A DNA stretch of 61,470 nucleotides from Candidatus Aenigmatarchaeota archaeon (GTDB lineage Archaea; Aenigmatarchaeota; Aenigmatarchaeia; CG10238-14; SCSR01), in the NCBI GenBank assembly GCA_018304615.1, contig JAGVVV010000003.1, positions 1 to 61,470 of the forward strand, read 5' to 3'. Positions 10,761 through 25,753 of the stretch are shown one piece after another; positions within the stretch are counted from its first letter, which is position 1; every line of letters begins with the position of its first letter. A program made the translations under genes and the position numbers. The notes beneath the pieces are model-generated. The model made no database searches and was not told the DNA's origin. It was given only the letters and a program-made list of their open reading frames with translations.

Positions 10761-11028
10761 TAGTATGATAAATAAGAAAATAGAGGATGTAGTTAAGGTT
10801 TCTACTAGAGGGCAGATAGTCATACCAAAAGAAATTAGGAAGAGGATGGGTGTTTCTGCTGGAGAAAGGCTTTTGGTTATGAGCGAGGATAGAGGAATTT
10901 TGATTAAAAAGCTAGAAAGTCTTTCAATGGAAGAGATAGGAGAAAGGATAGAAGCTACTGCGAAGAAGAAAGGCATAGATGTAGATAAGCTGATAGATGA
11001 GGCCACTAAATGGGCAAGGTCAAAGTAG
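10756..11028 (+). CDS. AbrB/MazE/SpoVT family antitoxin
   Basis: VSTRGQIVIPKEIRKRMGVSAGERL; true start at 10756, not the 10549 of the ORF track. Confidence 0.88.
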   Translation: MNSMINKKIEDVVKVSTRGQIVIPKEIRKRMGVSAGERLLVMSEDRGILIKKLESLSMEEIGERIEATAKKKGIDVDKLIDEATKWARSK

Positions 11029-11435
11029 TTTTTGATACCAATGTTTGGATATCAATTTTTACTAAAAAAACTCTAAGTAAAGAGTTCTCCGAAATCCTAG
11101 AGAAAGAACTTGTATCCGTTTATATCAGTGAAGAAATTCTTAAAGAAATTACCAAAGTCCTTTTTTATCCCAAAATCGAAGAACTATTAAACCTCTCAGG
11201 TGTGAATGAAAGGGACATTCTCAGGAATATCACTTCAATTTCCAATTTCGTCAAGCCTAAATTCAAATTGAAAGTCATAAAGGAAGATCCGGAAGATAAT
11301 AAAATTCTTGATTGTGCTATGCAAGTCAAAGTCGATTTTATTATAAGTGGAGATAGGCATTTACTAAAGCTTAAAAAGTTCAGGAATACTAAAATTGTAA
11401 CACCGAGAGAATTTTTGGATATAATTGTTGAATGA
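11010..11435 (+). CDS. vapC: PIN-domain toxin (putative TA toxin family)
   Basis: VVFDTNVWIS, DPEDNKILDCA, IISGDRHLL, IVTPREFL. Confidence 0.9.
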   Translation: MGKVKVVFDTNVWISIFTKKTLSKEFSEILEKELVSVYISEEILKEITKVLFYPKIEELLNLSGVNERDILRNITSISNFVKPKFKLKVIKEDPEDNKILDCAMQVKVDFIISGDRHLLKLKKFRNTKIVTPREFLDIIVE

Positions 11436-11486
11436 TTTATTTTTAAGTACTTTTCTGGATTTTACTTCCACTGATTTTCTTCGGAG

Positions 11487-11624
11487 TTAACTTTGGAGAA
11501 AGGATTCTCTGGCGCTGCCATCCAGTACAAGTATCTGGAGACTGGAAAAACTGACATGACTACTATAAATTCTGTTCAAGTTTACAGAATTGATGATTCG
11601 CTTGTCAGTTCTATCTGCAAGTGA
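11487..11624 (+). pseudogene. displaced duplicate of the glycosyltransferase 3' end
   Basis: Encodes LTLEKGFSGAAIQYKYLETGKTDMTTINSVQVYRIDDSLVSSICK*, 36/45 aa identical to the GT C-terminus; in-frame stop upstream at 11472-11474. Confidence 0.9.
11496..11539 (+). repeat. 44-bp exact direct repeat, copy 2
   Basis: Identical to 10602-10645; period 894 bp. Confidence 0.95.
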
Positions 11625-11625
11625 A

Positions 11626-13179: not shown

Positions 13180-13233
13180 AGTTTAATATTTTATATCATC
13201 AAATAAAAACGTTGAAATAAAACCAAGTTCATA

Positions 13234-14175
13234 ATGATTTTAATGCCCATCAACACTATCACTGTAGAGCTTACAAACAAGTGTGATTTGGATTGCAAGT
13301 TCTGTGTTCCTGAAAGAGAGGAAAGCAGTCTGAAGTTCTCAACGTTCAAACACATTGTGAAAGAGAGCCAGAAGGTCGATCCGCCGATAAAGAATTTCGA
13401 GTTCGGATATTTCGGAAGCCCCTTGATGTATAAGAGATTTGAAGATGTTTTGAAGCTACTTCAAAAAAACAAACTGTCTGCCAATGTGGTTACTAACGGG
13501 TTTAATCTGAAATGGAATCTGGGTTTCATAGGCGACAAACTGATGAAAAATATCAGCGTTTCTGTATATCTAGAGAGTCTTGACGAGGCTAAATGCGACC
13601 AATTAACTGGAGTAAAGAAATATTACAAAAAAACCATCGAAGCCATGGAGTACATGAACGATAGAAGAATTCCCTACAACATATTCATGAGGATCACTTC
13701 GCTGAATTATCAGGAGATAGAGCAGATGCTGGATATTATGAAGTTCTACTACGGCCAAGGATTATTCCCAATAGAGATGTTTCCTTATACTGACGAGAGT
13801 CTGCTTCTGACGGACGAGATGAAGAAAGAAGCGATACAAAAGATAGTCGAACTACAGAATTATGGGGAAAGTATTCATAGGGTAATACAATTCTCAGAAG
13901 TTGAAGGTAATTGCAGCTATCAGAGGATGGAGAGGCTGTTTGTGAATTCTTCTGGGAATGTAGGATTTTGTCATTTTCTCACGCCATTAGAAAAAACGGG
14001 ACTTTTCAATGCAGGGAAGATGAAAATCTCCAAGATCATAGAACTGAACAACAAAGTGAGGAAGAAATACCTTACAAAAAAACCGAAGGAGTTGAAAATC
14101 TGGAAGAGGCCTAGGCAAACTGTCTCCCCGTGTAGTTACTGTTTGCACAATTTCGGGTTGAAAAAGAACTGGTGA
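13234..14175 (+). CDS. radical SAM protein with SPASM/twitch-like C-terminus
   Basis: VELTNKCDLDCKFC (CxxxCxxC), VVTNG, C-terminal NCSY...FVNSSGNVGFCHF...CSYC. Confidence 0.88.
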   Translation: MILMPINTITVELTNKCDLDCKFCVPEREESSLKFSTFKHIVKESQKVDPPIKNFEFGYFGSPLMYKRFEDVLKLLQKNKLSANVVTNGFNLKWNLGFIGDKLMKNISVSVYLESLDEAKCDQLTGVKKYYKKTIEAMEYMNDRRIPYNIFMRITSLNYQEIEQMLDIMKFYYGQGLFPIEMFPYTDESLLLTDEMKKEAIQKIVELQNYGESIHRVIQFSEVEGNCSYQRMERLFVNSSGNVGFCHFLTPLEKTGLFNAGKMKISKIIELNNKVRKKYLTKKPKELKIWKRPRQTVSPCSYCLHNFGLKKNW

Positions 14176-14807: not shown

Positions 14808-16028
14808 ATGACTGTTATGGAAGAACAGTACAAAAGCCCAATTTCGAAACTTGGCCACCTAGCTGGGTCTGGAGTTAGAGACCTTTCCAAAGAACTCATG
14901 TCTCCTTTAAGTCCAATAGATGAGCAATTTAGATACACTACCGAGACTAAACAGGTTCAACGCAAGCCTGATTATTCAAGAAGACGGTTTGTTATCGGAG
15001 GTTTGGTTCTTGCAGGATTGGTTGCTGAAGAATATTTCATAGGTATTGGAAGAAAATCACTTTTTTCCTCTACCCCTACTCCTACCCCAACTAATTCTAG
15101 TACTTATTCGATGAGTTCTGGTTCTACTTCCGAGATAATTTCTCAAACTAAGACTACTCAAACTGCCACAACTAGAAGCTTGCCTGCACTTGAACTCGGG
15201 GAATATGATTTGGGCGGTTATTCTTTCCATGACTATAATGGAATGGGAAGTTTGGAAGAGAATGAACCCATTGTTGATGATATTGAAGTGGTTGCTAAAA
15301 GCGCCAACAATACATTCACAACTAAGCCTGATAATGGAGGTTTTATTTTCAGAGATTTACCAATAGCTCCTTATACTGTTACTGAAGTTCATCCTGAAAA
15401 TAAGTTTAGGTACATGTGGAGGTCTGGAGAAGAGGTTGTTAATACTAAAACTGGCTTTAAAATTGATTTTCGTGGTAAATTGAGGTTGGATATAGCAATG
15501 GGAGAAGGACTTTTAACATCACCTTATGATGTTAGAAATACATTTGTTAGTGAGAAAATTTATATGGACGAAGATCCTGCAAAAAATACCTACAAAGATT
15601 GGAGAGGTGATCCTGATCCATGTGGGGGATGTGCTGATGGTCACGAAGGTACTGATTTCTTTTTTCCAGTAGGTACTCCAGTTTATGCAGCTGCACCTGG
15701 TAAGGTTAAATATATCGATAATTGGGGTCCAGTAGGTCTTTTTCTTATTATCCAGCATGAAGATTCTTTGTCCACTCTTTCCGCTCATATGAGTGAGGTT
15801 GATGTAAGTAAAAATCAATCAATTTATAGGAGACAATATTTAGGCAAATCTGGGCAGGACAAAACAAAACGAGGAGCGATACAGTTGCATTTTGAACTTG
15901 ATCAGGGTTTTCATGGTAGTTTAACTAGGGATTCTTGGTATAGACCATTAGATCCTTATAAGTCATTATGGTTACCAAATGCACTAGGATACTGGACAGA
16001 GGAGAATAAACTTCATTTTCCAAATTAA
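14808..16028 (+). CDS. membrane-anchored M23 family metallopeptidase with an SdrD-B-like domain
   Basis: SRRRFVI + TM; GGYSFHDYNGMGSLEENEP (SdrD-B-like); HEGTDF, GTPVYAAAPGKV, AHMS, QLHFE. Confidence 0.85.
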   Translation: MTVMEEQYKSPISKLGHLAGSGVRDLSKELMSPLSPIDEQFRYTTETKQVQRKPDYSRRRFVIGGLVLAGLVAEEYFIGIGRKSLFSSTPTPTPTNSSTYSMSSGSTSEIISQTKTTQTATTRSLPALELGEYDLGGYSFHDYNGMGSLEENEPIVDDIEVVAKSANNTFTTKPDNGGFIFRDLPIAPYTVTEVHPENKFRYMWRSGEEVVNTKTGFKIDFRGKLRLDIAMGEGLLTSPYDVRNTFVSEKIYMDEDPAKNTYKDWRGDPDPCGGCADGHEGTDFFFPVGTPVYAAAPGKVKYIDNWGPVGLFLIIQHEDSLSTLSAHMSEVDVSKNQSIYRRQYLGKSGQDKTKRGAIQLHFELDQGFHGSLTRDSWYRPLDPYKSLWLPNALGYWTEENKLHFPN

Positions 16029-16315
16029 TTTGAAAACCAAATTTCTTTAATAGTAATTAAAGAACCAATCAAAATAAATATAAATGCAATAATCCCCAAT
16101 GGTAAGCCAATTATCTGACCTAAATTTGGAACATTTAACATATTACTTATATCTACGAAAGGTATATTATCATGTATTAAATAGAACAATCCACCTGTTA
16201 CAATCCATTTTAAACCTTTGTATTCTTTATCTTTTAAAAAAGAATACCTAAGTAAAGCTACCGCAAGAAAAACTATAACTGTAATATCCATTGTTGGCGT
16301 ATTGAATAATGACAT
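16025..16315 (-). CDS. small three-helix membrane protein
   Basis: 96 aa, three hydrophobic segments; follows the SDR gene in the AT-rich block. Confidence 0.6.
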   Translation of the reverse strand: MSLFNTPTMDITVIVFLAVALLRYSFLKDKEYKGLKWIVTGGLFYLIHDNIPFVDISNMLNVPNLGQIIGLPLGIIAFIFILIGSLITIKEIWFSN

Positions 16316-16355
16316 TTCTTACTTTTTAATTAGTATTTGTTAATTATAAAGATTT

Positions 16356-17108
16356 CTATGAATATCTTGTAAAAACACTATGGCCACCATCAATAATTAA
16401 AGTTTGCCCCGTTATAAAATCAGAATCTGATGATGCTAGAAAAACAACTAATTTTGCAACATCTTCAGGTTTTCCAACTCTTTTTAATGGTATAAGATTT
16501 TCAGCCCATTTTTGATATATTTTTTTGGGATAGTTAGCTTCTATTATTCCTGGAGCGATACAATTCACGTTTATATTATATTGTGCCATTTCCATAGCCA
16601 GATTCCTTGTAAAAGCAATTAATCCTGCTTTTGCTGCAGCATGAGCAGTATGTCCAATCGTTCCAGTAATTGCAACAATCGATGATATGTTTATTATCTT
16701 TCCATAATGTTGTTTTTTCATTGTAGGAATAACACTTTTTGAAAACAGAAATGATCCCTTTAAGTCTACATCAAATTGCATATCCCATCCTTCTTCGGTT
16801 ATAGTCTCTACCGGGCCCTTTACCCCTGAGCCAGCATTGTTTACGAGTATATCTATTTTTTTAAACTCATTAATTGTAGCTTCAACAACTTTCTTTATAT
16901 CTTCAAGTTTTCTAACATCACATCTCATTAATTTTACAGATTTATTGTATTTCGATTTTATTTGTTGTGATAGCAAATCAGCATTTATTTTATCAGTTAA
17001 AAAAGTAGAAACAACATCAGCCCCTTCTTTTACTAGTTCTTCGACAGCAGCTCTTCCTATGTGACCAGAGCCACCAGTTACTATTGCTACTTTGCCTAAT
17101 AATTTCAT
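16356..17108 (-). CDS. short-chain dehydrogenase/reductase (FabG-like) with His replacing the catalytic Tyr
   Basis: TGGSGHIG, LVNNAG, ISS, AHAAAKAG, INVNCIAPG, GQTLIIDGG. Confidence 0.92.
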   Translation of the reverse strand: MKLLGKVAIVTGGSGHIGRAAVEELVKEGADVVSTFLTDKINADLLSQQIKSKYNKSVKLMRCDVRKLEDIKKVVEATINEFKKIDILVNNAGSGVKGPVETITEEGWDMQFDVDLKGSFLFSKSVIPTMKKQHYGKIINISSIVAITGTIGHTAHAAAKAGLIAFTRNLAMEMAQYNINVNCIAPGIIEANYPKKIYQKWAENLIPLKRVGKPEDVAKLVVFLASSDSDFITGQTLIIDGGHSVFTRYS

Positions 17109-17177
17109 GTACTTCTATATTAATTTAATTCAAATAGTTTATATTTTCATATATCTACTAGTGATTTTATTAACATT

Positions 17178-17906
17178 TTGGGAAAAACATCAATTGTAAC
17201 TGGTGGAACAGGTAACCTCGGTAGTATTATAGTAAAAAAATTTCTAGAAGAAGGATCAGATGTAGTTTTTACTTATCTTAAAAATCAGAAGACAGTTGAA
17301 GTTCTTCAGCATCAAGCTAAGATTCTTAAAAGAAAAATACTTCCAATTAAATGTGACATTAGAAATCAAAATCATATTATAAAAGTTGTCGAGACAGCAA
17401 TCAAGAGTTTTAAAAAAATAGACATTCTTATCAATAATGCTGCCATTGAATACAGAGTTCCTACTTTAGAAACGACTAATGAAATGTTGAATGAAATTAT
17501 TGACGTCAATTTAAAAGGTCCATTTTACTTTAGTAAATTTGTCATTCCACATATGATTAAACAAAAATATGGTAAGATAGTGAATATAGCTTCCCTCGCA
17601 GGTTTAATTGGCGCTGATTCTTCTGCTGCTTATCACGCAACCAAAGCTGGTTTGATGGGCCTGACAAAAAAATTAGCTTTTGAATTTGGACCTTACAACA
17701 TCAATATCAATTCGATTGCTCCAGGTGTTATTCTTAGAAATACATTAGACAAAGAGTATATTGATTATATTGTAGCTTGGACTCCGTTAAGAAAAATGGT
17801 TAAACCAACTGACATTGCAAATGTTGCTTTATTCTTAGCTTCTCCTGAGTCAGATATGATAACTGGGCAGACTATCATTGTAGATGGTGGAACAGTAATG
17901 CTGTAA
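17178..17906 (+). CDS. short-chain dehydrogenase/reductase (FabG-like)
   Basis: TGGTGNLG, LINNAA, AYHATKAG (YxxxK), ININSIAPG; TTG start, exact start uncertain. Confidence 0.92.
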   Translation: MGKTSIVTGGTGNLGSIIVKKFLEEGSDVVFTYLKNQKTVEVLQHQAKILKRKILPIKCDIRNQNHIIKVVETAIKSFKKIDILINNAAIEYRVPTLETTNEMLNEIIDVNLKGPFYFSKFVIPHMIKQKYGKIVNIASLAGLIGADSSAAYHATKAGLMGLTKKLAFEFGPYNININSIAPGVILRNTLDKEYIDYIVAWTPLRKMVKPTDIANVALFLASPESDMITGQTIIVDGGTVML

Positions 17907-17907
17907 T

Positions 17908-19383
17908 TTACTTTACAAAACACATAGAGTTACAAATTCCACGTAAGTGATAAATACATTTTTTACATATTTCTGGAATTTTCATGTTACTGTGTACTGA
18001 ATTGAAATAATCAAATATTTGTTCTCTATTGTTTACTTGTTTTAACTCAGGCCCGAACTTATTTTTGAGCGGTTCGCAGAATTTTATTATCCCATTTTCC
18101 ACTGTGAACATTTCCCTGCATTCAAAACAGTTTTTCGGCTGTTTATCCATCTCCATTTTCAGACATGGAGGAAGAGGCCTACTTAAAACAAACTTGATTT
18201 TCTCATTCCTCAATTTTTCTAGGAAATTCTGAATTTTAATTCTTGTTTTCTGATTCCAAAGATCTTTTTCTTTTAATTCAAAAGATAATAAAAATTCCCT
18301 GTCACCGACTCCATAATGTCCGTGAAGTTTCTTTTTCTCCATCAACTCATTTAAAATAAAATCAAAATCATCATACGTTCTTATTCTAACAAATTTTCTC
18401 CCTATTGCTTCTTCATGGAAATTCTTATCAAAAGGAATGTTTCTTAACATATCAAAAATATCATCGAATTTCATAGGAACGAAATTTTGAATTTCCCAAT
18501 AATTTTCTCTTGAAAATAAAAAGTTTCCCGAGTATGTGTTCTTGAATTTCTCTATCATGTTGGAAAGATTTCCCTCAGCGATATTTCCCATGAACTCAGA
18601 TTTGAAAGTAAATGAAGTAGCGTAAACGTTTCCATTTGGAAAAGTAGTTGGAAAGAATCTAGCTCCAAACTTCACTTTAGTCGAGTTGGTGAGGTAGTAT
18701 CTATAATCATTGGGAGTTTTATATTTCTTAGCATAATAACTGATTTTTTTAAAAATGTAATCTTCAACCTGATTAAAATTCTGCCGGGGAGTAGTATCTA
18801 GGTTTTCAGCCCTTCCAACAACTCCCCATGTGTGAACTTCTATAGGTGTCTCATGCTTTACTATGATTTCAGCTATTTTGTCTATAAGTGGAAAACTTAA
18901 CATGTCAAGGCTGAGTCTCAGAATAATTTCTATATCCATTTCTTTACATACTTCAGCTACATTGTTTATTTTTGTAAGTGGGACTCTAGGCAAATGAAAT
19001 CTGTCGACACTAACTATCATTGTATCGAAATCGGCATTTTTTATTACATTCAAGTTTCTTCTTGTGTTTCCGATACTTCCAGCAAACACAGCAGAACTAA
19101 TTATGTTAAGGTCAAATGGCTTATAATATTCCAACAAAATATCGATGCATCTCTTCAATTTATCTAAATTGTAAAATGGTTCTCCCCCGCAAATTCTTAT
19201 TGCAATATCATTTTTTGAATATTCTTCTGCAACTCTTCTGATAGTTTCTTCAGGCATCCATTTCTGCGGTTCAAGAGATGGAAGACACGAATAAACACAA
19301 AAATCACAATTAACAGGACATGCCATCGTTATTAGCAAATCCCCGTCTACAGGCTTGTGCCTGACATCTTTTTTAATGACCAT
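17908..19383 (-). CDS. radical SAM protein with a Cys-rich C-terminal extension
   Basis: ITMACPVNCDFC, ICGGEP; C-terminal RPLPPCL, CFEC, FCEP, CKKC...ICNSMC. Confidence 0.88.
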   Translation of the reverse strand: MVIKKDVRHKPVDGDLLITMACPVNCDFCVYSCLPSLEPQKWMPEETIRRVAEEYSKNDIAIRICGGEPFYNLDKLKRCIDILLEYYKPFDLNIISSAVFAGSIGNTRRNLNVIKNADFDTMIVSVDRFHLPRVPLTKINNVAEVCKEMDIEIILRLSLDMLSFPLIDKIAEIIVKHETPIEVHTWGVVGRAENLDTTPRQNFNQVEDYIFKKISYYAKKYKTPNDYRYYLTNSTKVKFGARFFPTTFPNGNVYATSFTFKSEFMGNIAEGNLSNMIEKFKNTYSGNFLFSRENYWEIQNFVPMKFDDIFDMLRNIPFDKNFHEEAIGRKFVRIRTYDDFDFILNELMEKKKLHGHYGVGDREFLLSFELKEKDLWNQKTRIKIQNFLEKLRNEKIKFVLSRPLPPCLKMEMDKQPKNCFECREMFTVENGIIKFCEPLKNKFGPELKQVNNREQIFDYFNSVHSNMKIPEICKKCIYHLRGICNSMCFVK

Positions 19384-19424
19384 TTTATCAATATAATATA
19401 CAATTGTATATTATATTGATAAAT

Positions 19425-20009
19425 TCAATAAAATATTGATGTTTTTGCATCGAGTATAACCCAAAATCCAGTATAAACAATGGGATTATTTTCTTGTGTT
19501 TTTTTAATACAATCAAGATAATAATCAGAAGGTTCAGGAACATCAGATAGGTGAAATTTTTTGCATCCAAAGTAAAAAACATAATAATCATCCATATTAT
19601 CTTGTATTCCAGAATTTCCGTAAAAGATGCAATTTGGACCATTTCTAATTGCATCATCTATTAATTTGGCTGATTGTTCATTACAATTTTTAATATAGCC
19701 AAGGTAAACATAAGAATTATTTTTATCTTGATAATAGATTTCTGAATACAGCTTTCCGAACTCGCAAGTTATTTCATAATTTGAGCCGATTTTTTTAATA
19801 TGAGCTGCGTTGACTAAAGATTCATTTGCAGGGTTATCGCATTTCCAACTATTATCCCAATTCGATAAAAACCAAAAATCAACATTTCTTAATTCCGAAA
19901 AATTGTCAGAAAATGAAACATGAACAGGTTTATGAGAATATAAAATTATAAAAGCTAATACTATTCCTATAACAATAACAATACCAAATATTTTTTTTTC
20001 ACTTATCAT
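19425..20009 (-). CDS. membrane-anchored exported hypothetical protein
   Basis: N-terminal TM then a six-Cys soluble domain; co-oriented directly downstream of the precursor gene. Confidence 0.65.
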   Translation of the reverse strand: MISEKKIFGIVIVIGIVLAFIILYSHKPVHVSFSDNFSELRNVDFWFLSNWDNSWKCDNPANESLVNAAHIKKIGSNYEITCEFGKLYSEIYYQDKNNSYVYLGYIKNCNEQSAKLIDDAIRNGPNCIFYGNSGIQDNMDDYYVFYFGCKKFHLSDVPEPSDYYLDCIKKTQENNPIVYTGFWVILDAKTSIFY

Positions 20010-20057
20010 TAATTATAATTATTTTGACGATTTAGATATTTTTGTTTATACTGTTAT

Positions 20058-21365
20058 TTAACAACCACCGGTAGTGGCAGTAGTACTGATAGTAGTACTG
20101 ACAGTAGTACTAGTAGTATCACAACTTATATTATGTACCAATACTCCATCAGCAAAGAACGAATGCGTCCTGGTAATATTCTTAATTGTGTATGTCTGTA
20201 TCACTCCATATTCAAAGTCTATCTTGACAACCGTCTTAAACTTCAAATCACTCGTCATTACCATATCTCCGATTTGTAATTGAAGTACTCTTGATTTCTG
20301 CAATAACAATGAATTCTGTCCTCCCTTTGACTGAACTTCACTTCTCATATAAGCCTCTTCGCTTCCAGTAGGATCGACAGCCTTCCATCCACCAGCCGTG
20401 TAAATGGGATGATCCCTACTTATTCTCAGTTTACTGTTATCGTCGAAAGTAATCTTACAAATATAATCATGAACTACACTTTCTAATCCAAGAACTTTTC
20501 CTATTGCAAGTTGATTAGTATTTTCATCATAACCCATCACCCTCTCACCAATCTGCACATCCTCAATATTCTTCAGACTCCCATTCCCCATGAGTACCTT
20601 CGTCCCTCCCGGAAGACATGTATAAGCTGAGGTCGCCGGTCCTGTAGTAAATATATTATGTACCAATACTCCATCAACAAAGAACGAACACGTCCCTTGG
20701 AGGGTGTATGTCTGTATCACTCCATATTCAAAGTCTATCTTGACAACCGTCTTAAACTTCAAATCACTCGTCATCACTCTATCTCCTGTCTGTAGTTGCA
20801 GTACTCTAGATTTCTGTAAGAGTAAGGAGTTTTGTCTACCTTTCGATTGAACTGTTTCGTCACCGAAATAAGTTTCTTCACTTTTGCTCGGGTCAATAGC
20901 CTTCCATCCACCGGCCGTATAAATCGGATGGTCATTTGTTATTCTCAATTCAGTGTTGTCATCAAAAGTAATCTTACAGACATAATCACGTAATGGCCTC
21001 TTCAACCCAAGAACCTCCTTTATGGTCATGTTGTGGGTATTTTCATCATAACCCATCACCCTCTCACCAATCTGCACATCCTCAATATTCTTCAGACTCC
21101 CATCCCCCATGAGTACCTTCGTCCCTCCCGGAAGACAGCAGCTTCCAGTAGTTCCAGTAGTGCTCACAGAACTAGAATGTGACCCTTGGATATTAGGTTT
21201 TGCATAATTGATATTTGTGGAGGAAGTGTGTGTGGCTGCAGTAGCGGCAGTAACTCCAGCAAGTGCAGTTCCTATGGCGACTAGAGCCTTCTTTGATATT
21301 TTTCCTTCCTCACCAGTAAGGAAATCGGATATGTTTTTCTTAATCTTAGGAAGATTCAAAGTCAT
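20058..21365 (-). CDS. His-Xaa-Ser-type peptide precursor containing two tandem Hint (BIL-like) domains
   Basis: Leader DFLTGEEGKISKKALV, HTS (aa46-48) and HSS (aa63-65); Hint1 aa77-237, spacer aa238-249, Hint2 aa250-412, tail aa413-435. Confidence 0.85.
   Translation of the reverse strand: MTLNLPKIKKNISDFLTGEEGKISKKALVAIGTALAGVTAATAATHTSSTNINYAKPNIQGSHSSSVSTTGTTGSCCLPGGTKVLMGDGSLKNIEDVQIGERVMGYDENTHNMTIKEVLGLKRPLRDYVCKITFDDNTELRITNDHPIYTAGGWKAIDPSKSEETYFGDETVQSKGRQNSLLLQKSRVLQLQTGDRVMTSDLKFKTVVKIDFEYGVIQTYTLQGTCSFFVDGVLVHNIFTTGPATSAYTCLPGGTKVLMGNGSLKNIEDVQIGERVMGYDENTNQLAIGKVLGLESVVHDYICKITFDDNSKLRISRDHPIYTAGGWKAVDPTGSEEAYMRSEVQSKGGQNSLLLQKSRVLQLQIGDMVMTSDLKFKTVVKIDFEYGVIQTYTIKNITRTHSFFADGVLVHNISCDTTSTTVSTTISTTATTGGC
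20079..20114. repeat. 12-bp tandem repeat, three copies, encoding STT(V/I/A)
   Basis: AGTAGTACT(G/A) units at 20079, 20091 and 20103. Confidence 0.8.
20130..20618 (-). other. Hint domain 2 (163 aa, no endonuclease)
   Basis: Starts CLPGGTKV, block B SRDHP, ends HSFFADGVLVHN; +1 residue Ile. Confidence 0.92.
20655..21137 (-). other. Hint domain 1 (161 aa, no endonuclease)
   Basis: Starts CLPGGTKV, block B TNDHP, ends SFFVDGVLVHN; +1 residue Ile. Confidence 0.92.
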
Positions 21366-21392
21366 ATTCCCTTATTAATATTTGCAAAAAGC

Positions 21393-22142
21393 CTAACTTA
21401 AATGTTCCCCATCTCTCATCTTTTGGTATACATCCAAATTAGTTACCATCTCAGCTTTTATTTCCATGCTTTTGACTAGCTTGAACCCCAACGAAAGCAT
21501 AAGTGCCTGAAGTATCTGAGACGACCAGACATACATCTTGAATTTTACCATCCCCTTTCCTTTAAAAGAAACCCTGATTAATTCAATTGAATTATCTAAA
21601 TGGGAATAATTTCCATTAATGTTAAGGAAATTATCTGATGTGGAGATAGAATACTGATCCCTCAAGACAGATTTGAGAGAATCATTATAACTAATCAACA
21701 CATTTCCTTTTTTCCTCAAGTTCTTGTTCAAATTCCTCATTATTTTGACGAACGAGATTAATGAGATATTAGCCAAGGTATTACCAAACATTGTGAAAGA
21801 ATCAAACATTTTATCCAATTTCACAGTTCCAGCATCTGCATTTTTGAACTCTGATTTGAATTTTAACTTTTTCTTCTCCCCAAGTGCAATTTTTATCATC
21901 TTTTTATTGTTGTCTATCCCTACGATCGAATACCCCTTTGATTCAAGCCATAAAGACAAAAGACCTCCGCCACAACCTATGTCTAAAATTCTACCTTTTA
22001 TCATGCGTTTATTTCCACTCAAGAAAGGTTCAATTTCCTTGTAATTGGCTTCCATCTCAGCAATCCTTTTCTTCCCCCACCGGGAGGAATAAGTATATTT
22101 TTCATAACCTTCAACATCTTTCCAGAAATCAATCACAACCAT
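21393..22142 (-). CDS. class I SAM-dependent methyltransferase
   Basis: ILDIGCGGG, VGIDNN, FKNADA, FDSFTMFGNT. Confidence 0.88.
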   Translation of the reverse strand: MVVIDFWKDVEGYEKYTYSSRWGKKRIAEMEANYKEIEPFLSGNKRMIKGRILDIGCGGGLLSLWLESKGYSIVGIDNNKKMIKIALGEKKKLKFKSEFKNADAGTVKLDKMFDSFTMFGNTLANISLISFVKIMRNLNKNLRKKGNVLISYNDSLKSVLRDQYSISTSDNFLNINGNYSHLDNSIELIRVSFKGKGMVKFKMYVWSSQILQALMLSLGFKLVKSMEIKAEMVTNLDVYQKMRDGEHLS

Positions 22143-22177
22143 AATCTACAATTGTCAACTCTATTTATTAAAATGAA

Positions 22178-23638
22178 CTAAATCGAAGAATTCTTCACCC
22201 AGTTCATCATGATTTTGGCGTCTTCAGGATTGAAAATCAGCTTCCTGAACATGTGCTCTATCTGCAAGTCATGTACCTGCAATATGTAGTCTTGCTTCGT
22301 CTTAGTGATTAGATTCTTCTGCTGGCCGTACGAACTGACATGGCATGGGGAAGAATACGGGTGCCAAGGAGAAGTATCGTCCTGAACAGTAGTAGTCAGC
22401 CCTATAAAGTTAATCGCATCCTTTGAAGTGAAAACTTCCCTGTAAGTGTTCTCTTTCACATTTCCCAGTTTGAAAACATCTGAATTCTTCCCTTCGTCAC
22501 ATGTGAAGACATCACCCCACTGGTTGTATCCGGCTTGTGTAATGCAAGCACCGCAAGGGGCTCCAAGACAAGTGTAAGAAGAAGGCTGCAATGTCACGAT
22601 CCTCCTCAGCAAAATGATTATGTCATCCCCCACCATGTTAACTCCTTTCCTGTTTAGTTCCAAAAGATATTCCAGATAATTCTTCCATCCCTCTACAAAC
22701 TCCTCGGCAGTATATCCTATCTTATCCCAAGTCTGTTCAGCCCTACCTGCTATGAAAATAGGCCTGAAACTGATGTGATTCAATCCGTGTTTGATATACT
22801 CATCAACGAGTTCTCTCACATAAGGAAGAGTATACCTTGTGACTGTTGGCATGGCAGTCGAGAAGAAAGGATATTTCAACTCTTTCAATTTATCTATCCA
22901 ATAAACAACCTTTTCATGAGAACTTCCTTTGACCCAAGGCCTGTTCTTGTCGTGAATTTTCTTCGGCCCGTCAAGCGAAGTGCAGATATGGACTTTATTC
23001 ATCATCAAATATTCAAGTTTCTCTTCGTCCATCAAAGTCAAATTTGAAACCAACTGGAAAGTGATTTTCTTAATGCCGTTCCACCATCCGCTTTCATCAG
23101 CCTCCTTACTTTTGTTTATTTTCTTCGCTCGTTCAATCATGAATTCAATCATTGGAAAATTAAGTAAAGGCTCTCCTCCTGTGAATTCAATTGTCAGATA
23201 CGGGGACGGAGATTGGAAGATGAAATCTATAGTAGCCTTTGCAGTCTTCTTATCCATGTCAACCCCTTTCTTGTTTTCATGGACTGCATAAGGATAGCAG
23301 TACAAACAACCTTGGTTACATCTCAAAGTTGGAGTGATAATGTGAAGATTAGTTCCAGTGAAGATCCTGTTGAATCTCATCCTATACATGTTGGTAAGTT
23401 TGTCATGGTTCCTCTCAGTGATTATTACCCCTTTCTCTTCCAAAACAGAAAACAAATTAAGATCTTCTTCTAACTTGTCCATTTTGAAAAGTCTGAATTC
23501 TTTTCCATCAAGTACAACCCAACTTCCATGTTCTGTAGTAATCAGATGATGATTCTCATCAAACTTTTTCACCCAATGCTTGTTGATCTCATGCAATGGA
23601 GCAGAAGTCTCAGAATTTACTGAAAGTGAGAGTGCCAT
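22178..23638 (-). CDS. hxsB: His-Xaa-Ser system radical SAM maturase HxsB-like
   Basis: LHIITPTLRCNQGCLYCY, TIEFTGGEPLLNF, ICTSLDGPKKIHDKNR, TCLGAPCGACITQAGYNQWGDVFTCDEG. Confidence 0.82.
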   Translation of the reverse strand: MALSLSVNSETSAPLHEINKHWVKKFDENHHLITTEHGSWVVLDGKEFRLFKMDKLEEDLNLFSVLEEKGVIITERNHDKLTNMYRMRFNRIFTGTNLHIITPTLRCNQGCLYCYPYAVHENKKGVDMDKKTAKATIDFIFQSPSPYLTIEFTGGEPLLNFPMIEFMIERAKKINKSKEADESGWWNGIKKITFQLVSNLTLMDEEKLEYLMMNKVHICTSLDGPKKIHDKNRPWVKGSSHEKVVYWIDKLKELKYPFFSTAMPTVTRYTLPYVRELVDEYIKHGLNHISFRPIFIAGRAEQTWDKIGYTAEEFVEGWKNYLEYLLELNRKGVNMVGDDIIILLRRIVTLQPSSYTCLGAPCGACITQAGYNQWGDVFTCDEGKNSDVFKLGNVKENTYREVFTSKDAINFIGLTTTVQDDTSPWHPYSSPCHVSSYGQQKNLITKTKQDYILQVHDLQIEHMFRKLIFNPEDAKIMMNWVKNSSI

Positions 23639-23899
23639 TCACTGACCTCTTTCCTTCACAGCATTTAGCAAATGATTGTAAAACTCATATCCCAGCAATT
23701 CCATCTCCTCCGGTTTTAGATTCTTTTTCGGCTGCATTTCAACGAATATCCTAGACTTTTCATCTGCCGCAACTACATGGCAAACCTGCTCGAATTCTTC
23801 TTTCACCTTTTTCACAGACTCGAAATCATAGAATTTTGGATTTATGAACAACTGGACTCTATTTCCGTTTACCTTTATTTTTTCTGCTAACTTTGGCAC
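23639..23899 (-). CDS. HxsD-like small protein
   Basis: FINPKFYD...GYEFYNHLL, paralogous pattern to the adjacent 139-aa protein. Confidence 0.65.
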   Translation of the reverse strand: MPKLAEKIKVNGNRVQLFINPKFYDFESVKKVKEEFEQVCHVVAADEKSRIFVEMQPKKNLKPEEMELLGYEFYNHLLNAVKERGQ

Positions 23900-24278
23900 T
23901 CTTTACTTTCCCCCTTTTAACTGGAGCACTCTTTACTTCAGATTCTTGTGATTGAGTCTCAAACGCTTTCTGGATTATCATTCCCCTAAGAACAGCATTT
24001 TTCTCCACCTGAGTATTGTAAACAGAATAACTGACTAACTCATTGTTGAACTGCCTCCCCAATTCTTCCAGGTTTATTTTAGCGTCTTTCCTCCTCAACT
24101 GGACTATTATTTCCTCATTGGGGTCTCCGTCAATCAGCACCCACGCCTTGTCTACAAGAATATATGCGGCAGAAAAAATCGTGTTCATCGGGTAAATCTT
24201 GGGATTCACAGAAATGACGACATTTCCAGTCTTCTCATCGACTTCCAGATTATCTACAGACAAAATTCCTTCTGCCAT
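23859..24278 (-). CDS. hxsD: His-Xaa-Ser system protein HxsD-like
   Basis: VNPKIYPMNTIFSAAYILVDKAWVLIDGD...LGRQFNNELV pattern; first gene of the cluster. Confidence 0.72.
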   Translation of the reverse strand: MAEGILSVDNLEVDEKTGNVVISVNPKIYPMNTIFSAAYILVDKAWVLIDGDPNEEIIVQLRRKDAKINLEELGRQFNNELVSYSVYNTQVEKNAVLRGMIIQKAFETQSQESEVKSAPVKRGKVKSAKVSRKNKGKRK

Positions 24279-24319: not shown

Positions 24320-25351
24320 ATGGTCGATTTAATACTTATTGCTATTATTGTCTTCGGATTTATTAATTCCTATACCGATTTGAAATATTCCAAAATAAAA
24401 AACGTTTTAATAATTCTAATGATTCTTTCATCAGCAGTCCTTAACTTCTATCTGAATTCATTCACATACGAAACGATAATCAACTCTTCAATATCCCTTG
24501 CTCTAGGATTCTTTCTTTTTTATCTGAACTACTGGTCTGCCGGAGACGCCAAACTATTTTTCGCATTCTCCCTTCTTGTTCCAATCTCAGTCTACCACTT
24601 TGGCAAAGTAAGCTACTTCCCATCCATCAGCATCTTGATCAACGCCTTCGTCCCAGTTACAATTTACTATTTGCTCAAATCGGTTACAACCCTGAAAATA
24701 AAAAACCTTGTCAATATCCTAAAAGATCAATTGAAACCAAAAACACTACTCGCAACAGTTCTATTCCTTTTCGGTTTTCCTTTCATATTCAATTTTTTCA
24801 ATCTGAAACTCGATGTAATCTCCTCAGTGTTCATCTTGCTCCTTCTTTTCCAGGTTCTTAAGAAATTTCCCAAAAAATATTCCCTTGTCTTCTTCGTTTC
24901 ACTTTCCATCCTCAATCTACTCTTCTATCCGGATAAAATTCTAGTTCCTCCTTTCTTTTACAATTTCATCCTTTCAGTAATTATCTATCAGATATTCAAC
25001 TTAGCCCTAAGTTTCCTATTTACCCTATCTTTTTCAAACCAGTTCTTAATTGACAAATTGAAACCTGGGATGATCCTAGGCGAGCCATTATTCGAACTTG
25101 GAAATAAATTCAGCAAAAAATCAAAAAAAGGAGAAAAGATAACGAAACTCTCGCAAGAAGACATCTCGTTGCTTAACAAATTGTACAAATCTGGGAAACT
25201 GGATTTTAAAACTCTCCTGATTGAGAGAACAGTTCCATTCGCACCTTTCATTTTCATAGGAGTTCTTCTCACATACTTAGTCCAAGGAAACCTGTTTTCT
25301 TACGTCTACCTCATCTATCTGAAACCTTATTTTGCGACTTTACTAAGTTGA
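24320..25351 (+). CDS. class III signal (prepilin) peptidase, A24/FlaK-PibD-like
   Basis: YTDLK first Asp, WSAGDAKL GxGD-type motif, C-terminal VPFAPFIFIG. Confidence 0.85.
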   Translation: MVDLILIAIIVFGFINSYTDLKYSKIKNVLIILMILSSAVLNFYLNSFTYETIINSSISLALGFFLFYLNYWSAGDAKLFFAFSLLVPISVYHFGKVSYFPSISILINAFVPVTIYYLLKSVTTLKIKNLVNILKDQLKPKTLLATVLFLFGFPFIFNFFNLKLDVISSVFILLLLFQVLKKFPKKYSLVFFVSLSILNLLFYPDKILVPPFFYNFILSVIIYQIFNLALSFLFTLSFSNQFLIDKLKPGMILGEPLFELGNKFSKKSKKGEKITKLSQEDISLLNKLYKSGKLDFKTLLIERTVPFAPFIFIGVLLTYLVQGNLFSYVYLIYLKPYFATLLS

Positions 25352-25352: not shown

Positions 25353-25721
25353 TTGATGAAAAGGAGGAAGAAGAATAAGAAATCTAATAAAAACCTCATG
25401 ATTCTAATTGGAATCCTGCTTGCGGTTTCATTCTTTTTGCTTATCAATTTCAAACCCCAGGTATCCACTTTCTCTATCAATTCACCTGAAAACATAACAT
25501 ATGATGACGGAGACATTTTTCTCAGCGTCTCCTCTAACAGGCTGATGGTCTGGATGAACGACTCTCTAGATGGAGAGAATCTGAAAAACCAGTGCACGTT
25601 CTGCTATGATTTCAGGATAGATGGCTACAAACTCAAACCCGGAACCCACAGCTATTCCGTAGACGCCATGACAGAGGACGGGATAATCCTTTCACAAACA
25701 GTCGTCTTCACAGTCAAATAA
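25353..25721 (+). CDS. membrane-anchored small Ig-like protein
   Basis: Basic N-terminus + TM; INSPENITY, GTHSYSVDA, QTVVFTVK strands. Confidence 0.65.
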   Translation: MMKRRKKNKKSNKNLMILIGILLAVSFFLLINFKPQVSTFSINSPENITYDDGDIFLSVSSNRLMVWMNDSLDGENLKNQCTFCYDFRIDGYKLKPGTHSYSVDAMTEDGIILSQTVVFTVK

Positions 25722-25753
25722 TCTTAATTTGGAGAAAAAAAGGAATAACAAAT

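What the first reader, a model, noticed from the sequence alone, without database searches (positions are those of the whole stretch)
16025..24278. Expanded Hxs-type biosynthetic cluster with unusual tailoring genes
Seen: a co-oriented minus-strand run of hxsD, hxsD-like, hxsB, methyltransferase, Hint precursor, exported six-Cys protein and a second radical SAM. It is followed by a divergent SDR pair and a small membrane protein. The 16.0-20.05 kb part is visibly more AT-rich than the housekeeping genes. Known: described Hxs loci have HxsA/B/C/D and their product is unknown. Inference: a methyltransferase and two SDRs point to further tailoring, and no stand-alone HxsC or dedicated peptidase or transporter is evident, which fits self-processing by the Hints.
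Basis: partly seen in the sequence, partly recalled or inferred. Interest (0 to 1): 0.7.

Follow-up and report, generated by a model that had tools for sequence, protein, structure and literature searches.

The report
Archaeal Hxs system with Hint-fused precursor
A tiny symbiotic-type archaeon carries a variant of the radical-SAM "His-Xaa-Ser" system, shown in 2026 to block phage DNA entry in E. coli. Here the target protein is fused to two self-cleaving intein-like domains, and the system has its own membrane peptidase and extra enzymes in place of HxsC.

Summary
A seven-gene minus-strand operon (24278 to 17908) encodes HxsD, an HxsD-like protein, HxsB, a methyltransferase, a Hint-bearing precursor, a six-Cys membrane protein (p194) and a second radical SAM enzyme. 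Two SDRs and a small membrane protein follow. Bases 16025-20050 are the second most AT-rich 4-kb stretch of the genome.

- No HxsC exists in this 89%-complete genome.
- The methyltransferase, p194 and second radical SAM enzyme recur in the same order in close relatives. An orthologous SDR follows that enzyme in one contig.
- A dedicated peptidase is present just outside the coordinates (24320-25351). This A24 aspartyl-peptidase paralogue flanks 25 of 32 related HxsB loci and forms its own clade.
- The Hxs function is no longer unknown. HXS is an antiphage system (Nat Commun 2026).

The precursor has an HxsA3-type leader, a hydrophobic segment and a conserved core with two His-x-Ser motifs. Its Ser/Thr-rich tail carries two Hint domains that lack a +1 nucleophile. 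At least four lineages fuse such Hints to HxsA-type cores, mostly at the very C-terminus. I therefore read them as autoprocessing modules, not inteins. The second radical SAM enzyme resembles the peptide epimerase EpeE/YydG.

Verdict: new variant of a known kind. The chemistry and role are untested.

The parts
24320..25351 (+).
   Evidence: PF01478 scores 33.3 bits against a cut-off of 26.5. It is the second A24 gene of the genome; the 304-aa housekeeping copy is on contig C19. A long paralogue flanks 25 of 32 HxsB loci. Its count per genome matches the number of Hxs loci. It is absent from 60 HxsB-less genomes of the same taxonomic family. It forms a clade separated from housekeeping copies by a branch with 100/100 support. 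D20, N28, D76 and K78 are invariant in 32 of 32 sequences.
23859..24278 (-). HxsD homologue, 139 aa
   Evidence: TIGR03976 scores 42 bits against a cut-off of 50. An HxsD homologue is present in 28 of 32 related loci.
23639..23899 (-). Small HxsD-like paralogue, 86 aa, overlapping hxsD by 41 nt
   Evidence: NF038315 (HxsD_rel) scores 35.8 bits against a cut-off of 41. A homologue is present in 25 of 32 related loci.
22178..23638 (-). HxsB-type radical SAM enzyme, 486 aa, twitch-like (second auxiliary-cluster cysteines lost)
   Evidence: TIGR03978 scores 341 bits against a cut-off of 370, aligned full length. The CxxxCxxC motif is at C107, C111 and C114. Four SPASM cysteines kept in about 85% of 34 archaeal HxsB sequences are missing here and in L105, L090 and L092.
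21393..22142 (-). Class I SAM-dependent methyltransferase, 249 aa, inserted between hxsB and the precursor gene
   Evidence: It hits several Pfam methyltransferase families. Orthologues at 62-65% identity lie between HxsB and an HxsA-type precursor in L108, L109 and L111. It is absent from 32 more distant HxsB loci.
21138..21365 (-). Precursor residues 1-76: HxsA3-type leader (LPKIKK..FLxGEEGxISK), hydrophobic segment, conserved core H46-T-S-S-T-N-I-N-Y...H63-S-S-S-V, and Ser/Thr linker ending in Cys76
   Evidence: NF038309 scores 28 bits over residues 5-39. Forty columns are invariant across six subclade precursors. P6, K9, E19, G21, K25 and H63 are invariant across 16 precursors. The same leader lies next to HxsB in DPANN, Patescibacteria and other phyla.
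20655..21137 (-). Hint domain 1 (aa 77-237): Cys77, block B T143-N-D-H146, terminal H236-N237, +1 residue Ile
   Evidence: Pfam Hint, Hom_end_hint and Intein_splicing hits. Cys1 aligns with Cys1 of PI-SceI. Residue census.
20619..20654 (-). 12-residue spacer IFTTGPATSAYT between the two Hint domains
   Evidence: Read directly from the sequence. Spacers in related tandem-Hint proteins are 2-23 residues long, differ in sequence and are not conserved.
20130..20618 (-). Hint domain 2 (aa 250-412): Cys250, block B S316-R-D-H319, terminal H411-N412, +1 residue Ile
   Evidence: It shares 128 of 164 aligned positions with Hint 1. Residue census.
20061..20129 (-). 23-residue Ser/Thr-rich C-terminal tail, ISCDTTSTTVSTTISTTATTGGC
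   Evidence: It resembles the Ser/Thr/Cys tail of the Hint-less orthologue in L105 and the tail of L108, which ends in SGC.
19425..20009 (-). p194: membrane-anchored protein with six Cys, of unknown fold
   Evidence: It has no Pfam or NCBIfam family. The family has 36 representative clusters. The AF2 model has pLDDT 92, with an N-terminal helix at residues 4-24. No PDB fold matches; the best E-value is 0.69. Orthologues follow the precursor in L108 and precede the second radical SAM enzyme in L107.
17908..19383 (-). rSAM2: EpeE/YydG-like radical SAM enzyme, 491 aa, with a C-terminal domain carrying eight conserved Cys
   Evidence: TIGR04078 scores 65 bits against a cut-off of 300. A family profile hits YydG at 99.6 bits, E 1.7e-27. 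The AF2 model has pLDDT 92. The best PDB match is EpeE 8ai6, E 8e-12, TM 0.65. Seventy-six DPANN homologue clusters were found. It lies next to the precursor in L008 and L112, and next to HxsB or rSAM3 in L047, L090 and L105.
17178..17906 (+). SDR family oxidoreductase, 242 aa, convergent with rSAM2
   Evidence: PF13561 scores 197.6 bits. It is 45% identical to the neighbouring SDR, and these two are the only such genes in the genome.
16356..17108 (-). SDR family oxidoreductase, 250 aa
   Evidence: PF13561 scores 209.8 bits. An orthologue (357 of 542 self-bits) directly follows rSAM2 in L107.
16025..16315 (-). Small membrane protein, 96 aa; membership in the cluster is weak
   Evidence: It has no family hit. 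Weak homologues (18-25 bits) lie after rSAM2 in L008 and near the rSAM3-like gene in L105.
   Evidence: PF04055 hit. HxsC scores only 26.7 bits. Orthologues lie directly beside HxsB or rSAM2 in L047, L049 and L090, beside a p194-like gene in L092, and after the SDR in L107; L105 carries two copies further from HxsB.

Best explanation
The locus is an archaeal HxsA3-type member of the His-Xaa-Ser radical SAM protein-maturation systems. The organism is probably an Aenigmatarchaeota DPANN archaeon.

The conserved core of the system is a dedicated A24 aspartyl peptidase, HxsD, a small HxsD paralogue, HxsB and a precursor.

The precursor has four parts:
- a charged leader (LPKIKK..FLxGEEGxISK);
- a hydrophobic export or anchor segment;
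- a strongly conserved core with two His-x-Ser motifs (H46-T-S ... H63-S-S);
- a Ser/Thr-rich tail into which two Hint domains are inserted.

Proposed order of events, all inferred:
1. HxsB, here reduced to a single auxiliary cluster, acts with the HxsD proteins. They recognise the leader and modify the His/Ser core.
2. The methyltransferase, the EpeE/YydG-like rSAM2, rSAM3 and the SDRs are a subclade-specific accessory set. They add further modifications and stand where HxsC stands in canonical systems.
3. The hydrophobic segment takes the product to the membrane, where the dedicated A24 peptidase removes the leader.
4. The Hint domains act as BIL/Hedgehog-type autoprocessing modules. An N-S acyl shift at Cys77 and Cys250 and cyclisation of Asn237 and Asn412 cut the modified N-terminal peptide from the tail. 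They do not splice like classical inteins.

By analogy with E. coli HXS, the product would be a cell-surface His-rich effector, possibly antiviral.

Shown here: gene content, homologies, conserved neighbourhoods, catalytic-residue conservation and absence of HxsC. Inferred: every biochemical step and the biological role.
For: Family hits for HxsB, HxsD, HxsD_rel, the HxsA3 leader and Hint are.

HxsB occurs in 35 of 371 genomes of the phylum. Among 32 non-redundant loci, HxsD is present in 28, HxsD-like in 25, the long A24 in 25, and a leader-bearing precursor in at least 13.

A24 evidence:
- copy number tracks the number of Hxs loci;
- it is absent from 60 HxsB-less genomes of the same taxonomic family;
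- it forms a separate clade with 100/100 support;
- both catalytic Asp residues are invariant.

The leader and core are conserved. The same leader lies next to HxsB and HxsD in 49 named genome loci across DPANN, Patescibacteria and others.

No HxsC above the cut-off was found in this genome or in 34 Hxs-bearing relatives.

Subclade synteny:
- L108: HxsB-MTase-HxsA::Hint-p194.
- L111: HxsB-MTase-HxsA.
- L112 and L008: HxsA::Hint followed by rSAM2.
- L107: p194-rSAM2-SDR-rSAM3.
- L047 and L090: HxsB with rSAM3 and rSAM2.

Hint evidence:
- Cys1 in 25 of 25 domains, block B Thr in 23 of 25 and His in 25 of 25, and a terminal His-Asn in the 23 domains delimited correctly.
- The +1 residue is Lys, Ile, Ala, Tyr, Arg, Phe or Glu, never Cys, Ser or Thr, in the 23 correctly delimited domains.
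- HxsA-Hint fusions also occur in L007/L009, L101 and L116. There the protein ends 1-4 residues after His-Asn, so only N-junction cleavage is meaningful.

rSAM2 resembles EpeE/YydG.

The E. coli HXS precedent is maturation and N-terminal processing of an exported HxS effector (PMC13128918). BIL domains cleave without a +1 nucleophile (PMC7765530).
Against: - None of the Hxs models reaches its curated cut-off.
- The precursor has only two HxS motifs rather than a repeat array.
- HxsC, shown to be essential in E. coli and the partner of HxsD there, is absent.
- The leader does not show the usual class III [KR][GA]-hydrophobic cleavage site. An Ala-x-Ala-like stretch before H46 could be cut by signal peptidase instead.
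- The A24 gene also sits beside a p122 and Cys-rich surface-protein pair in several loci, and these could be its substrates.
- L108 has Thr at +1, and the Hint-less orthologue L105 has a continuous tail. Both fit an intein-like insertion.
- The AT-rich accessory block has a different composition from the core. In L107 it is seen without HxsB on a 9.6-kb contig that is cut on the side upstream of p194.
- No expression data were found.
- An antiviral role in a DPANN archaeon is pure analogy.
Confidence: 0.6

Rival explanations
1. The two Hints are mini-inteins, possibly decaying. On this reading they are selfish insertions in the Ser/Thr tail of an ordinary HxsA3 precursor. They splice out, or once did, to restore an L105-like protein, and have no role in maturation.
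For: - The Hint-less orthologue L105 has the same leader and core followed by a continuous Ser/Thr/Cys tail.
- L108 has Thr at +1.
- Cys1, TxxH and His-Asn are all intact.
- The two copies are a recent tandem duplication, sharing 128 of 164 aligned positions.
Against: - The +1 residue is not a nucleophile in the 23 correctly delimited family domains. Close relatives differ at this position: Ile, Ala, Tyr and Thr.
- There is no homing endonuclease.
- The host site is a low-complexity tail, not a conserved site of an essential protein.
- In L007/L009, L101, L116 and the second Hint of P0003 there is no C-extein to ligate.
- The same Hint subfamily ends many DPANN and CPR surface proteins.
- The genome has no other Hint or intein.
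- No Hint-less allele was found in four metagenome runs.
Confidence: 0.2
2. The cluster makes a small, diffusible, heavily tailored peptide natural product. The methyltransferase and SDRs are tailoring enzymes. The Hints replace both the peptidase and the need for a transporter.
For: - The MTase is conserved between hxsB and the precursor gene in three other contigs.
- An SDR orthologue is operonic with rSAM2 in L107.
- No ABC transporter lies in the locus.
Against: - A dedicated A24 peptidase is a conserved component.
- The precursor has a hydrophobic export or anchor segment.
- In E. coli the product is an exported protein effector, not a small RiPP (PMC13128918).
- The MTase and SDRs are absent from 32 of 32 other HxsB loci.
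- The Hints lie C-terminal to the core and cannot remove the leader.
Confidence: 0.25
3. Two independent cassettes lie side by side. On this reading the AT-rich block (p194, rSAM2, two SDRs, small membrane protein, perhaps rSAM3) is a separate radical SAM system with its own substrate. It landed next to an Hxs core that lacks HxsC.
For: - GC is 0.26-0.33 for these genes against about 0.40 for HxsD, HxsB and the precursor. The block is the second lowest of 1407 windows.
- L107 shows p194-rSAM2-SDR-rSAM3 with no HxsB on a 9.6-kb contig.
- The rSAM2 family is large, with 76 clusters, and is sometimes fused or adjacent to a prenyltransferase-like domain.
Against: - rSAM2 directly follows the HxsA::Hint gene in L008 and L112.
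- p194 directly follows the HxsA::Hint gene in L108.
- rSAM3 and rSAM2 directly follow HxsB in L047 and lie in the same loci in L090 and L105.
- In the window, p194 and rSAM2 continue the hxs operon with gaps of 41-48 nt.
- L107 is cut upstream of p194, so HxsB may lie just off the contig.
Confidence: 0.2

Closest known systems
HXS antiphage system of E. coli, Klebsiella and other Pseudomonadota (HxsD-HxsB-HxsC-HxsA; TIGR03976-03979; Li et al., Nat Commun 2026, PMC13128918)
   Same: - It has HxsB-type and HxsD-type proteins.
- The substrate has an N-terminal export-type segment and His-x-Ser motifs.
- In both, the precursor gene lies downstream of hxsD and hxsB (canonical order D-B-C-A).
- Maturation in E. 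coli includes N-terminal processing.
   Different: - There is no HxsC.
- There are two HxsD paralogues.
- HxsB lacks the second auxiliary-cluster cysteines.
- The substrate has only two HxS motifs and no peptidoglycan-binding domain, and it carries two Hint domains.
- A dedicated A24 peptidase, a methyltransferase, an EpeE-like radical SAM enzyme, a third radical SAM enzyme and SDRs are added.
- The host is an archaeon, whereas 99.7% of described HXS systems are in Pseudomonadota.
- All model scores fall below their cut-offs.
NCBIfam variant families HxsA3 (NF038309), HxsA4 (NF038313), HxsD_rel (NF038315) and HxsC4 (NF038332), which are annotation-only and unstudied
   Same: The leader matches HxsA3 model positions 2-38. 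The small second HxsD matches HxsD_rel. Related archaeal precursors match HxsA3 or HxsA4 over nearly the whole model.
   Different: Scores are below the cut-offs (28 against 65, and 35.8 against 41). None of the models describes a Hint fusion or an A24 partner.
Bacterial intein-like (BIL) domains and Hedgehog Hog-Hint autoprocessing domains (Amitai 2003 and Dassa 2004, as reviewed in PMC7765530)
   Same: - The Hint fold has Cys1, TxxH and a terminal His-Asn.
- There is no +1 nucleophile and no endonuclease.
- The domains sit in variable regions or at the C-terminus of exported proteins.
- The expected activity is self-cleavage through a thioester.
   Different: - The hosts are archaeal or CPR.
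- The domains are fused to a radical SAM-modified precursor.
- There is no sterol-recognition region.
- The copies are in tandem.
- Membership of the A-type or B-type BIL sequence families was not tested.
EpeE/YydG radical SAM peptide epimerase of Bacillus subtilis (PDB 8ai1-8ai6; TIGR04078)
   Same: rSAM2 has it as best match by sequence profile (99.6 bits) and by fold (E 8e-12, TM 0.65).
   Different: Identity is only 18-19%. TIGR04078 scores 65 bits against a cut-off of 300. rSAM2 has an extra C-terminal domain of about 170 aa with eight conserved Cys. The catalytic H-donor Cys was not mapped, and the substrate is unknown.
Archaeal prepilin/preflagellin peptidases PibD and FlaK (Peptidase A24, PF01478)
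   Same: It is a polytopic membrane protein. Both catalytic Asp motifs are invariant (D20...N28 and G/A-D76-x-K78).
   Different: It forms a separate clade about 50-90 aa longer than the housekeeping copy. It is found only with Hxs loci. The putative substrate leader lacks the classical [KR][GA] cleavage motif.

Membership tests
Canonical HXS system (HxsABCD) | HxsB radical SAM/SPASM maturase reaching the TIGR03978 equivalog cut-off | tested here: not met
   It scores 341 bits against 370, although it aligns over positions 7-466 of 466. Four AuxII cysteines are missing. It is a clear homologue (37% identity to L007 HxsB) but a divergent subclade.
Canonical HXS system (HxsABCD) | HxsC radical SAM maturase (TIGR03977), adjacent to HxsB | tested here: not met
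   The best hit in the whole genome scores 44 bits against a cut-off of 267.9, on another contig. In-window radical SAM enzymes score 20-27 bits. The genome is 89% complete.
Canonical HXS system (HxsABCD) | HxsD (TIGR03976) present | tested here: inconclusive
   It scores 42 bits against a cut-off of 50 over model positions 3-86 of 90. A second paralogue matches HxsD_rel at 35.8 bits against 41.
Canonical HXS system (HxsABCD) | HxsA effector with a tandem His-Xaa-Ser repeat array (TIGR03979) and a peptidoglycan-binding domain | tested here: not met
   There is no TIGR03979 hit. Only two HxS motifs are present (H46-T-S, H63-S-S). There is no peptidoglycan-binding domain; Hint domains stand in its place.
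Canonical HXS system (HxsABCD) | Blocks phage DNA entry | not testable with these tools
   This is known only for E. coli (PMC13128918). PADLOC 2.0 has no Hxs models.
HxsA3-type variant (NF038309 with HxsD_rel) | Leader or precursor matching NF038309 above the cut-off | tested here: not met
   It scores 28 bits against 65, covering the leader only. Related archaeal precursors score 18-43 bits. The leader motif is shared with 49 genome loci next to HxsB and HxsD.
Class 1 intein | Cys/Ser at position 1, block B TxxH, and C-terminal His-Asn | tested here: met
   Hint 1 has C77, T143-xx-H146 and H236-N237. Hint 2 has C250, S316-xx-H319 and H411-N412.
Class 1 intein | Cys, Ser or Thr at +1 of the C-extein | tested here: not met
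   The +1 residue is Ile for both Hints. No Cys, Ser or Thr occurs at +1 in the 23 correctly delimited family domains. The single exception is L108, with Thr.
Class 1 intein | Insertion in a conserved site of a conserved host protein, often with a homing endonuclease | tested here: not met
   The domains sit in a low-complexity Ser/Thr tail. Each is 161-163 aa with no endonuclease.
BIL / Hog-type autoprocessing Hint | Hint domain without a +1 nucleophile in variable exported proteins, often C-terminal | tested here: met
   Related proteins carry pilin-like or membrane-helix N-termini and a terminal Hint.
BIL / Hog-type autoprocessing Hint | Autocatalytic N- or C-terminal cleavage | not testable with these tools
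   This needs protein expression and mass spectrometry.
YydG/EpeE radical SAM epimerases | TIGR04078 equivalog score | tested here: not met
   It scores 65 bits against a cut-off of 300. Fold and profile similarity are nonetheless best to EpeE.
Peptidase A24 | Pfam gathering score and two catalytic Asp motifs | tested here: met
   PF01478 scores 33.3 bits against 26.5. D20 and D76 are invariant in 32 of 32 Hxs-linked paralogues.

The most novel reading that the evidence does not exclude
The Hint thioester may be used for more than hydrolysis.

(a) As in Hedgehog, the thioester at Cys77 could transfer the radical SAM-modified His/Ser peptide onto a lipid or surface acceptor. This would anchor an antiviral 'gatekeeper' peptide covalently to an archaeal envelope that has no peptidoglycan. 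It would be the counterpart of the peptidoglycan-binding domain of E. coli HxsA.

(b) The two tandem Hints could release the 12-residue spacer with a free amine and an activated carboxyl, giving a natural head-to-tail cyclic peptide.

Either outcome would be the first ribosomal peptide pathway that couples radical SAM modification to intein-type chemistry.
Probability: 0.12. Interest if true: 0.85.

Novelty: new variant of a known kind. Interest (0 to 1): 0.62.

Why it matters
HXS was shown only in 2026 to be an antiphage system, and it was reported as almost confined to Pseudomonadota. This locus and its roughly 80 relatives examined here show a much wider HxsA3-type branch in DPANN archaea and Patescibacteria, with different parts.

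Three differences stand out:
- The branch has its own membrane peptidase clade, which gives a testable answer to how the leader is removed.
- It has alternative second maturases in place of HxsC.
- In at least four lineages the substrate is fused to self-cleaving Hint domains.

A radical SAM-modified precursor that carries its own intein-type protease has no precedent in the literature I could search. It would give a compact, self-releasing scaffold for studying the still-unknown Hxs chemistry (the +8 Da change on SHRSS in E. coli).

Tried and rejected
- PADLOC 2.0 has no Hxs models, so it gave no defence-system call.
- The fold search of p194 gave no PDB match despite a confident model.
- No RNA runs hold the locus, so expression is untested.
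It worked with eight sequences.
- The idea that the L007 401-aa gene corresponds to the window methyltransferase was rejected, as the two show no similarity.
- A polymorphic-toxin reading of the Hints (PT-HINT) was rejected, because the C-terminal piece is a 23-residue Ser/Thr tail and not a toxin domain.
- The idea that the second radical SAM enzyme or rSAM3 is a divergent HxsC was rejected at sequence level (20-27 bits).
- A contig-length match suggesting that P0108 lies on G219:C14 did not hold, because no rSAM2 is in L049. That label was not used for taxonomy.
- A first GC3 calculation ignored strand and is not used.

Full report
**What is there.** The window is contig C6 of a 785-kb, 22-contig, 89%-complete archaeal genome. 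Its tRNA genes carry introns. Contigs of same-order and same-class genomes are identical in length and content to records labelled Candidatus Aenigmatarchaeota. Examples are G050:C8 = WJKS01000028.1 and G218:C7 = JAGGVU010000001.1. The organism is therefore most likely an Aenigmatarchaeota DPANN archaeon from groundwater or soil.

- HxsD, 23859-24278 (TIGR03976, 42 bits against 50).
- A small HxsD-like paralogue, 23639-23899 (NF038315, 35.8 against 41).
- HxsB, 22178-23638 (TIGR03978, 341 against 370, aligned full length).
- A class I methyltransferase, 21393-22142.
- A 435-aa Hint-bearing precursor, 20058-21365.
- A 194-aa six-Cys membrane protein (p194), 19425-20009.
- A 491-aa radical SAM enzyme (rSAM2), 17908-19383.
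- Two SDRs, 17178-17906 (+) and 16356-17108 (-).
- A 96-aa membrane protein, 16025-16315.

From hxsD to rSAM2 the genes overlap or lie at most 48 nt apart, so they look like one operon. Bases 16025-20050 have GC 0.304. Genome 4-kb windows average 0.396 with SD 0.026, and this stretch is the second lowest of 1407. All components are single-copy, and the genome holds no other Hint domain. Unitigs from three independent metagenome runs span the Hint1-spacer-Hint2 junction without mismatch, so the tandem arrangement is real.

**Literature.** Li et al. (Nat Commun 2026, PMC13128918) showed that HxsD-HxsB-HxsC-HxsA is an antiphage system. HxsB, HxsC and HxsD mature HxsA, which has a signal peptide, five HxS repeats and a peptidoglycan-binding domain. 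Maturation includes N-terminal processing and a +8 Da change on an SHRSS motif. The periplasmic product blocks phage DNA entry. That paper reports 99.7% of systems in Pseudomonadota, almost always as four genes in the order D-B-C-A.

**Neighbourhood analysis.** HxsB homologues occur in 35 of 371 genomes of this phylum, and 27 of these exceed the cut-off. None occurs in the other sampled genomes of the window's own taxonomic family, which suggests horizontal acquisition. I collected 32 non-redundant HxsB loci with flanks.

| Feature within the flanks | Loci out of 32 |
|---|---|
| HxsD | 28 |
| Small HxsD-like paralogue | 25 |
| A24-family peptidase | 25 |
| Precursor with the window's leader | at least 13 |
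| Window-type methyltransferase | 0 |
| SDR | 0 |

**The A24 peptidase.**
- Each Hxs-bearing genome has one short housekeeping A24 of about 280-315 aa, plus one long A24 of 343-395 aa per Hxs locus.
- Sixty HxsB-less genomes of the same taxonomic family have only the short one.
- In a maximum-likelihood tree the 17 short copies form one clade, separated from all Hxs-linked copies by a branch of length 2.96 with 100/100 support.
- D20, N28, D76 and K78 are invariant in 32 of 32 long copies.

Earlier notes of this scan saw the same A24 link in other phyla. I treat that as agreement, not as independent support.

**HxsC and its substitutes.** No HxsC reaches the cut-off in this genome; the best hit scores 44 bits, elsewhere in the genome. 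None reaches it in 34 Hxs-bearing relatives either. Those relatives do hold many HxsC-like radical SAM enzymes of about 300 aa scoring 100-214 bits, often beside HxsB. The window's genome has none of these.

A different accessory set recurs instead:
- rSAM2 directly follows the HxsA::Hint gene in L008 (59% identity) and in L112.
- rSAM3, the orthologue of window 13234-14175, and rSAM2 follow HxsB in L047 and lie in the loci L090 and L105.
- L107 shows p194-rSAM2-SDR-rSAM3.
- The methyltransferase recurs between HxsB and an HxsA-type precursor in L108, L109 and L111. In L108 the order is HxsB-MTase-HxsA::Hint-p194.

It is met only indirectly for the SDR. All these genes are accessory to one subclade, not part of the conserved system.

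rSAM2 belongs to a DPANN-wide family of 76 clusters. A profile of that family hits YydG at 99.6 bits. A confident model (pLDDT 92) matches the peptide epimerase EpeE/YydG best (8ai6, E 8e-12, TM 0.65). rSAM2 adds a C-terminal domain with eight conserved cysteines.

p194 has a confident model but no PDB fold match.

HxsB of the window, L105, L090 and L092 lacks four SPASM cysteines that about 85% of archaeal HxsB sequences keep. It therefore looks twitch-like, which explains its sub-threshold score.

**The precursor.** Residues 1-73 are almost invariant within the subclade. They comprise:
- a leader, LPKIKKxISxFLxGEEGxISKK;
- a hydrophobic segment;
- a core, H46-T-S-S-T-N-I-N-Y-x-x-P-N-x-Q-x-x-H63-S-S-S-V.

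Across 16 more distant precursors, P6, K9, E19, G21, K25 and H63 stay invariant. Relatives match HxsA3 or HxsA4 over nearly the whole model, though below the cut-off.

A scan of named genomes with the leader found 49 loci. They come from Aenigmatarchaeota, Woesearchaeota/Nanoarchaeota, Patescibacteria, Myxococcota, Omnitrophota and other phyla. About 35 have HxsB nearby. All Aenigmatarchaeota loci, most Woesearchaeota/Nanoarchaeota loci, and some Saccharibacteria loci also have the long A24.

After the core comes a Ser/Thr-rich tail. In the closest full relative, L105, this tail is continuous and Cys-containing, with no Hint. In the window it is interrupted by two Hint domains, at aa 77-237 and 250-412, which share 128 of 164 aligned positions.

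**Nature of the Hints.** Both keep Cys1, block B (TNDH and SRDH) and a terminal His-Asn. Cys1 aligns with Cys1 of PI-SceI. The +1 residue is Ile in both. In 23 correctly delimited domains of this subfamily it is Lys, Ile, Ala, Tyr, Arg, Phe or Glu, never Cys, Ser or Thr. The one exception found is L108, with Thr. There is no endonuclease.

The subfamily typically ends exported or pilin-like proteins of DPANN and CPR organisms. HxsA-type cores are fused to such Hints in at least four lineages:
- the window subclade;
- L007/L009, where the HxS repeats run directly into CCFPAGT and the protein ends HN-KGM;
- L101, which ends HN-K;
- L116 from a Woesearchaeota genome, which ends HN-KDGR.

With no C-extein in three of these lineages, splicing cannot be the function. 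I conclude that the Hints are BIL/Hog-type autoprocessing modules (background in PMC7765530). They would cut the modified N-terminal peptide from what follows through a thioester at Cys1. The decaying mini-intein reading keeps about 0.2 probability, because of the L105 and L108 comparison.

**How it most likely works.** All steps below are inferred.
1. HxsB and the two HxsD proteins recognise the leader and modify the His/Ser core.
2. The methyltransferase, EpeE-like rSAM2, rSAM3 and the SDRs add subclade-specific changes and fill the place of HxsC.
3. The hydrophobic segment targets the product to the membrane, and the dedicated A24 peptidase removes the leader.
4. The Hints cleave at their junctions.

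The product would be a surface His-rich peptide. An antiviral role is only an analogy to E. coli HXS, at about 0.3 probability.

Weak points:
- Every Hxs model scores below its cut-off.
- The precursor has only two HxS motifs.
- The leader lacks a classical class III cleavage motif, and an Ala-rich stretch before H46 could serve signal peptidase instead.
- The A24 gene also neighbours a p122 and Cys-rich surface-protein pair in several loci.
- No expression data were found.

**Novelty.** This is a new variant of a known kind. The HxsA3-type branch exists only as NCBIfam model names. A full-text search for Hint domain, radical SAM and precursor peptide together returned nothing. The Hint fusion, the dedicated A24 clade and the EpeE-like/rSAM3/SDR/MTase accessory set have no description in the literature I could search.

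Noticed in passing
L042/L113:4104-5741, L120:7992-9566, L125:7992-9521, L141:3311-4825: Other HxsA3-type precursors, from Aenigmatarchaeota, Pseudomonadales, Saccharibacteria and Paceibacterota, carry an unknown C-terminal domain of about 340 aa after the HxS repeats. It begins 'CCPF(I/L)xxWNGxxF..ENN(I/L)LP' and has no Pfam or NCBIfam family. The Cys-Cys junction resembles the Cys-Cys junction before the Hint domains.
   Followed up: partly
window 25353-28465: A 122-aa membrane-anchored protein and a 903-aa Cys-rich surface protein (68 Cys) follow the A24 gene. Comparable p122-like and/or large Cys-rich proteins flank the A24 gene in L043, L051, L090, L092, L105, L058 and L041. They may be further substrates or partners of the peptidase.
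   Followed up: partly
L007:10822-15372 and L009:4300-8846: In the single-Hint lineage, HxsC-like and HxsC4-like domains (195.6 and 110.7 bits) are fused to B12-binding radical SAM methyltransferase-like domains, giving proteins of 728 and 786 aa.
   Followed up: partly
L105:10405-12114 and protein P0108: rSAM2 homologues lie next to a prenyltransferase alpha-alpha toroid domain (PF00432, 118 bits) in L105. In P0108 (742 aa) the two are fused.
   Followed up: no
L105:17019-19825: The closest full relative of the cluster also carries ThiF, YcaO and nitroreductase genes beside p169 and rSAM3 orthologues. This is an azoline-type RiPP gene set next to the Hxs locus.
   Followed up: no
window 14808-16028: An exported M23-family peptidase lies in an archaeon, between the accessory block and rSAM3. 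It has no homologue in the related Hxs loci examined.
   Followed up: no
genome contig C22, about 10000-14000: This is the only stretch of the genome as AT-rich as 16-20 kb of the window (GC 0.30-0.31 in 4-kb windows). Its content was not examined.
   Followed up: no
window 28501-28587 and 36376-36486: Two intron-containing tRNA genes. ARAGORN could not assign the first one (anticodon read as 'tcaa').
   Followed up: no
G334:C2:84000-100000 (L103) and other relatives: Arrays of up to about ten HxsC-like radical SAM paralogues of about 300 aa surround a long A24 gene, away from HxsB, in several Aenigmatarchaeota genomes. These look like split or expanded Hxs systems.
   Followed up: partly
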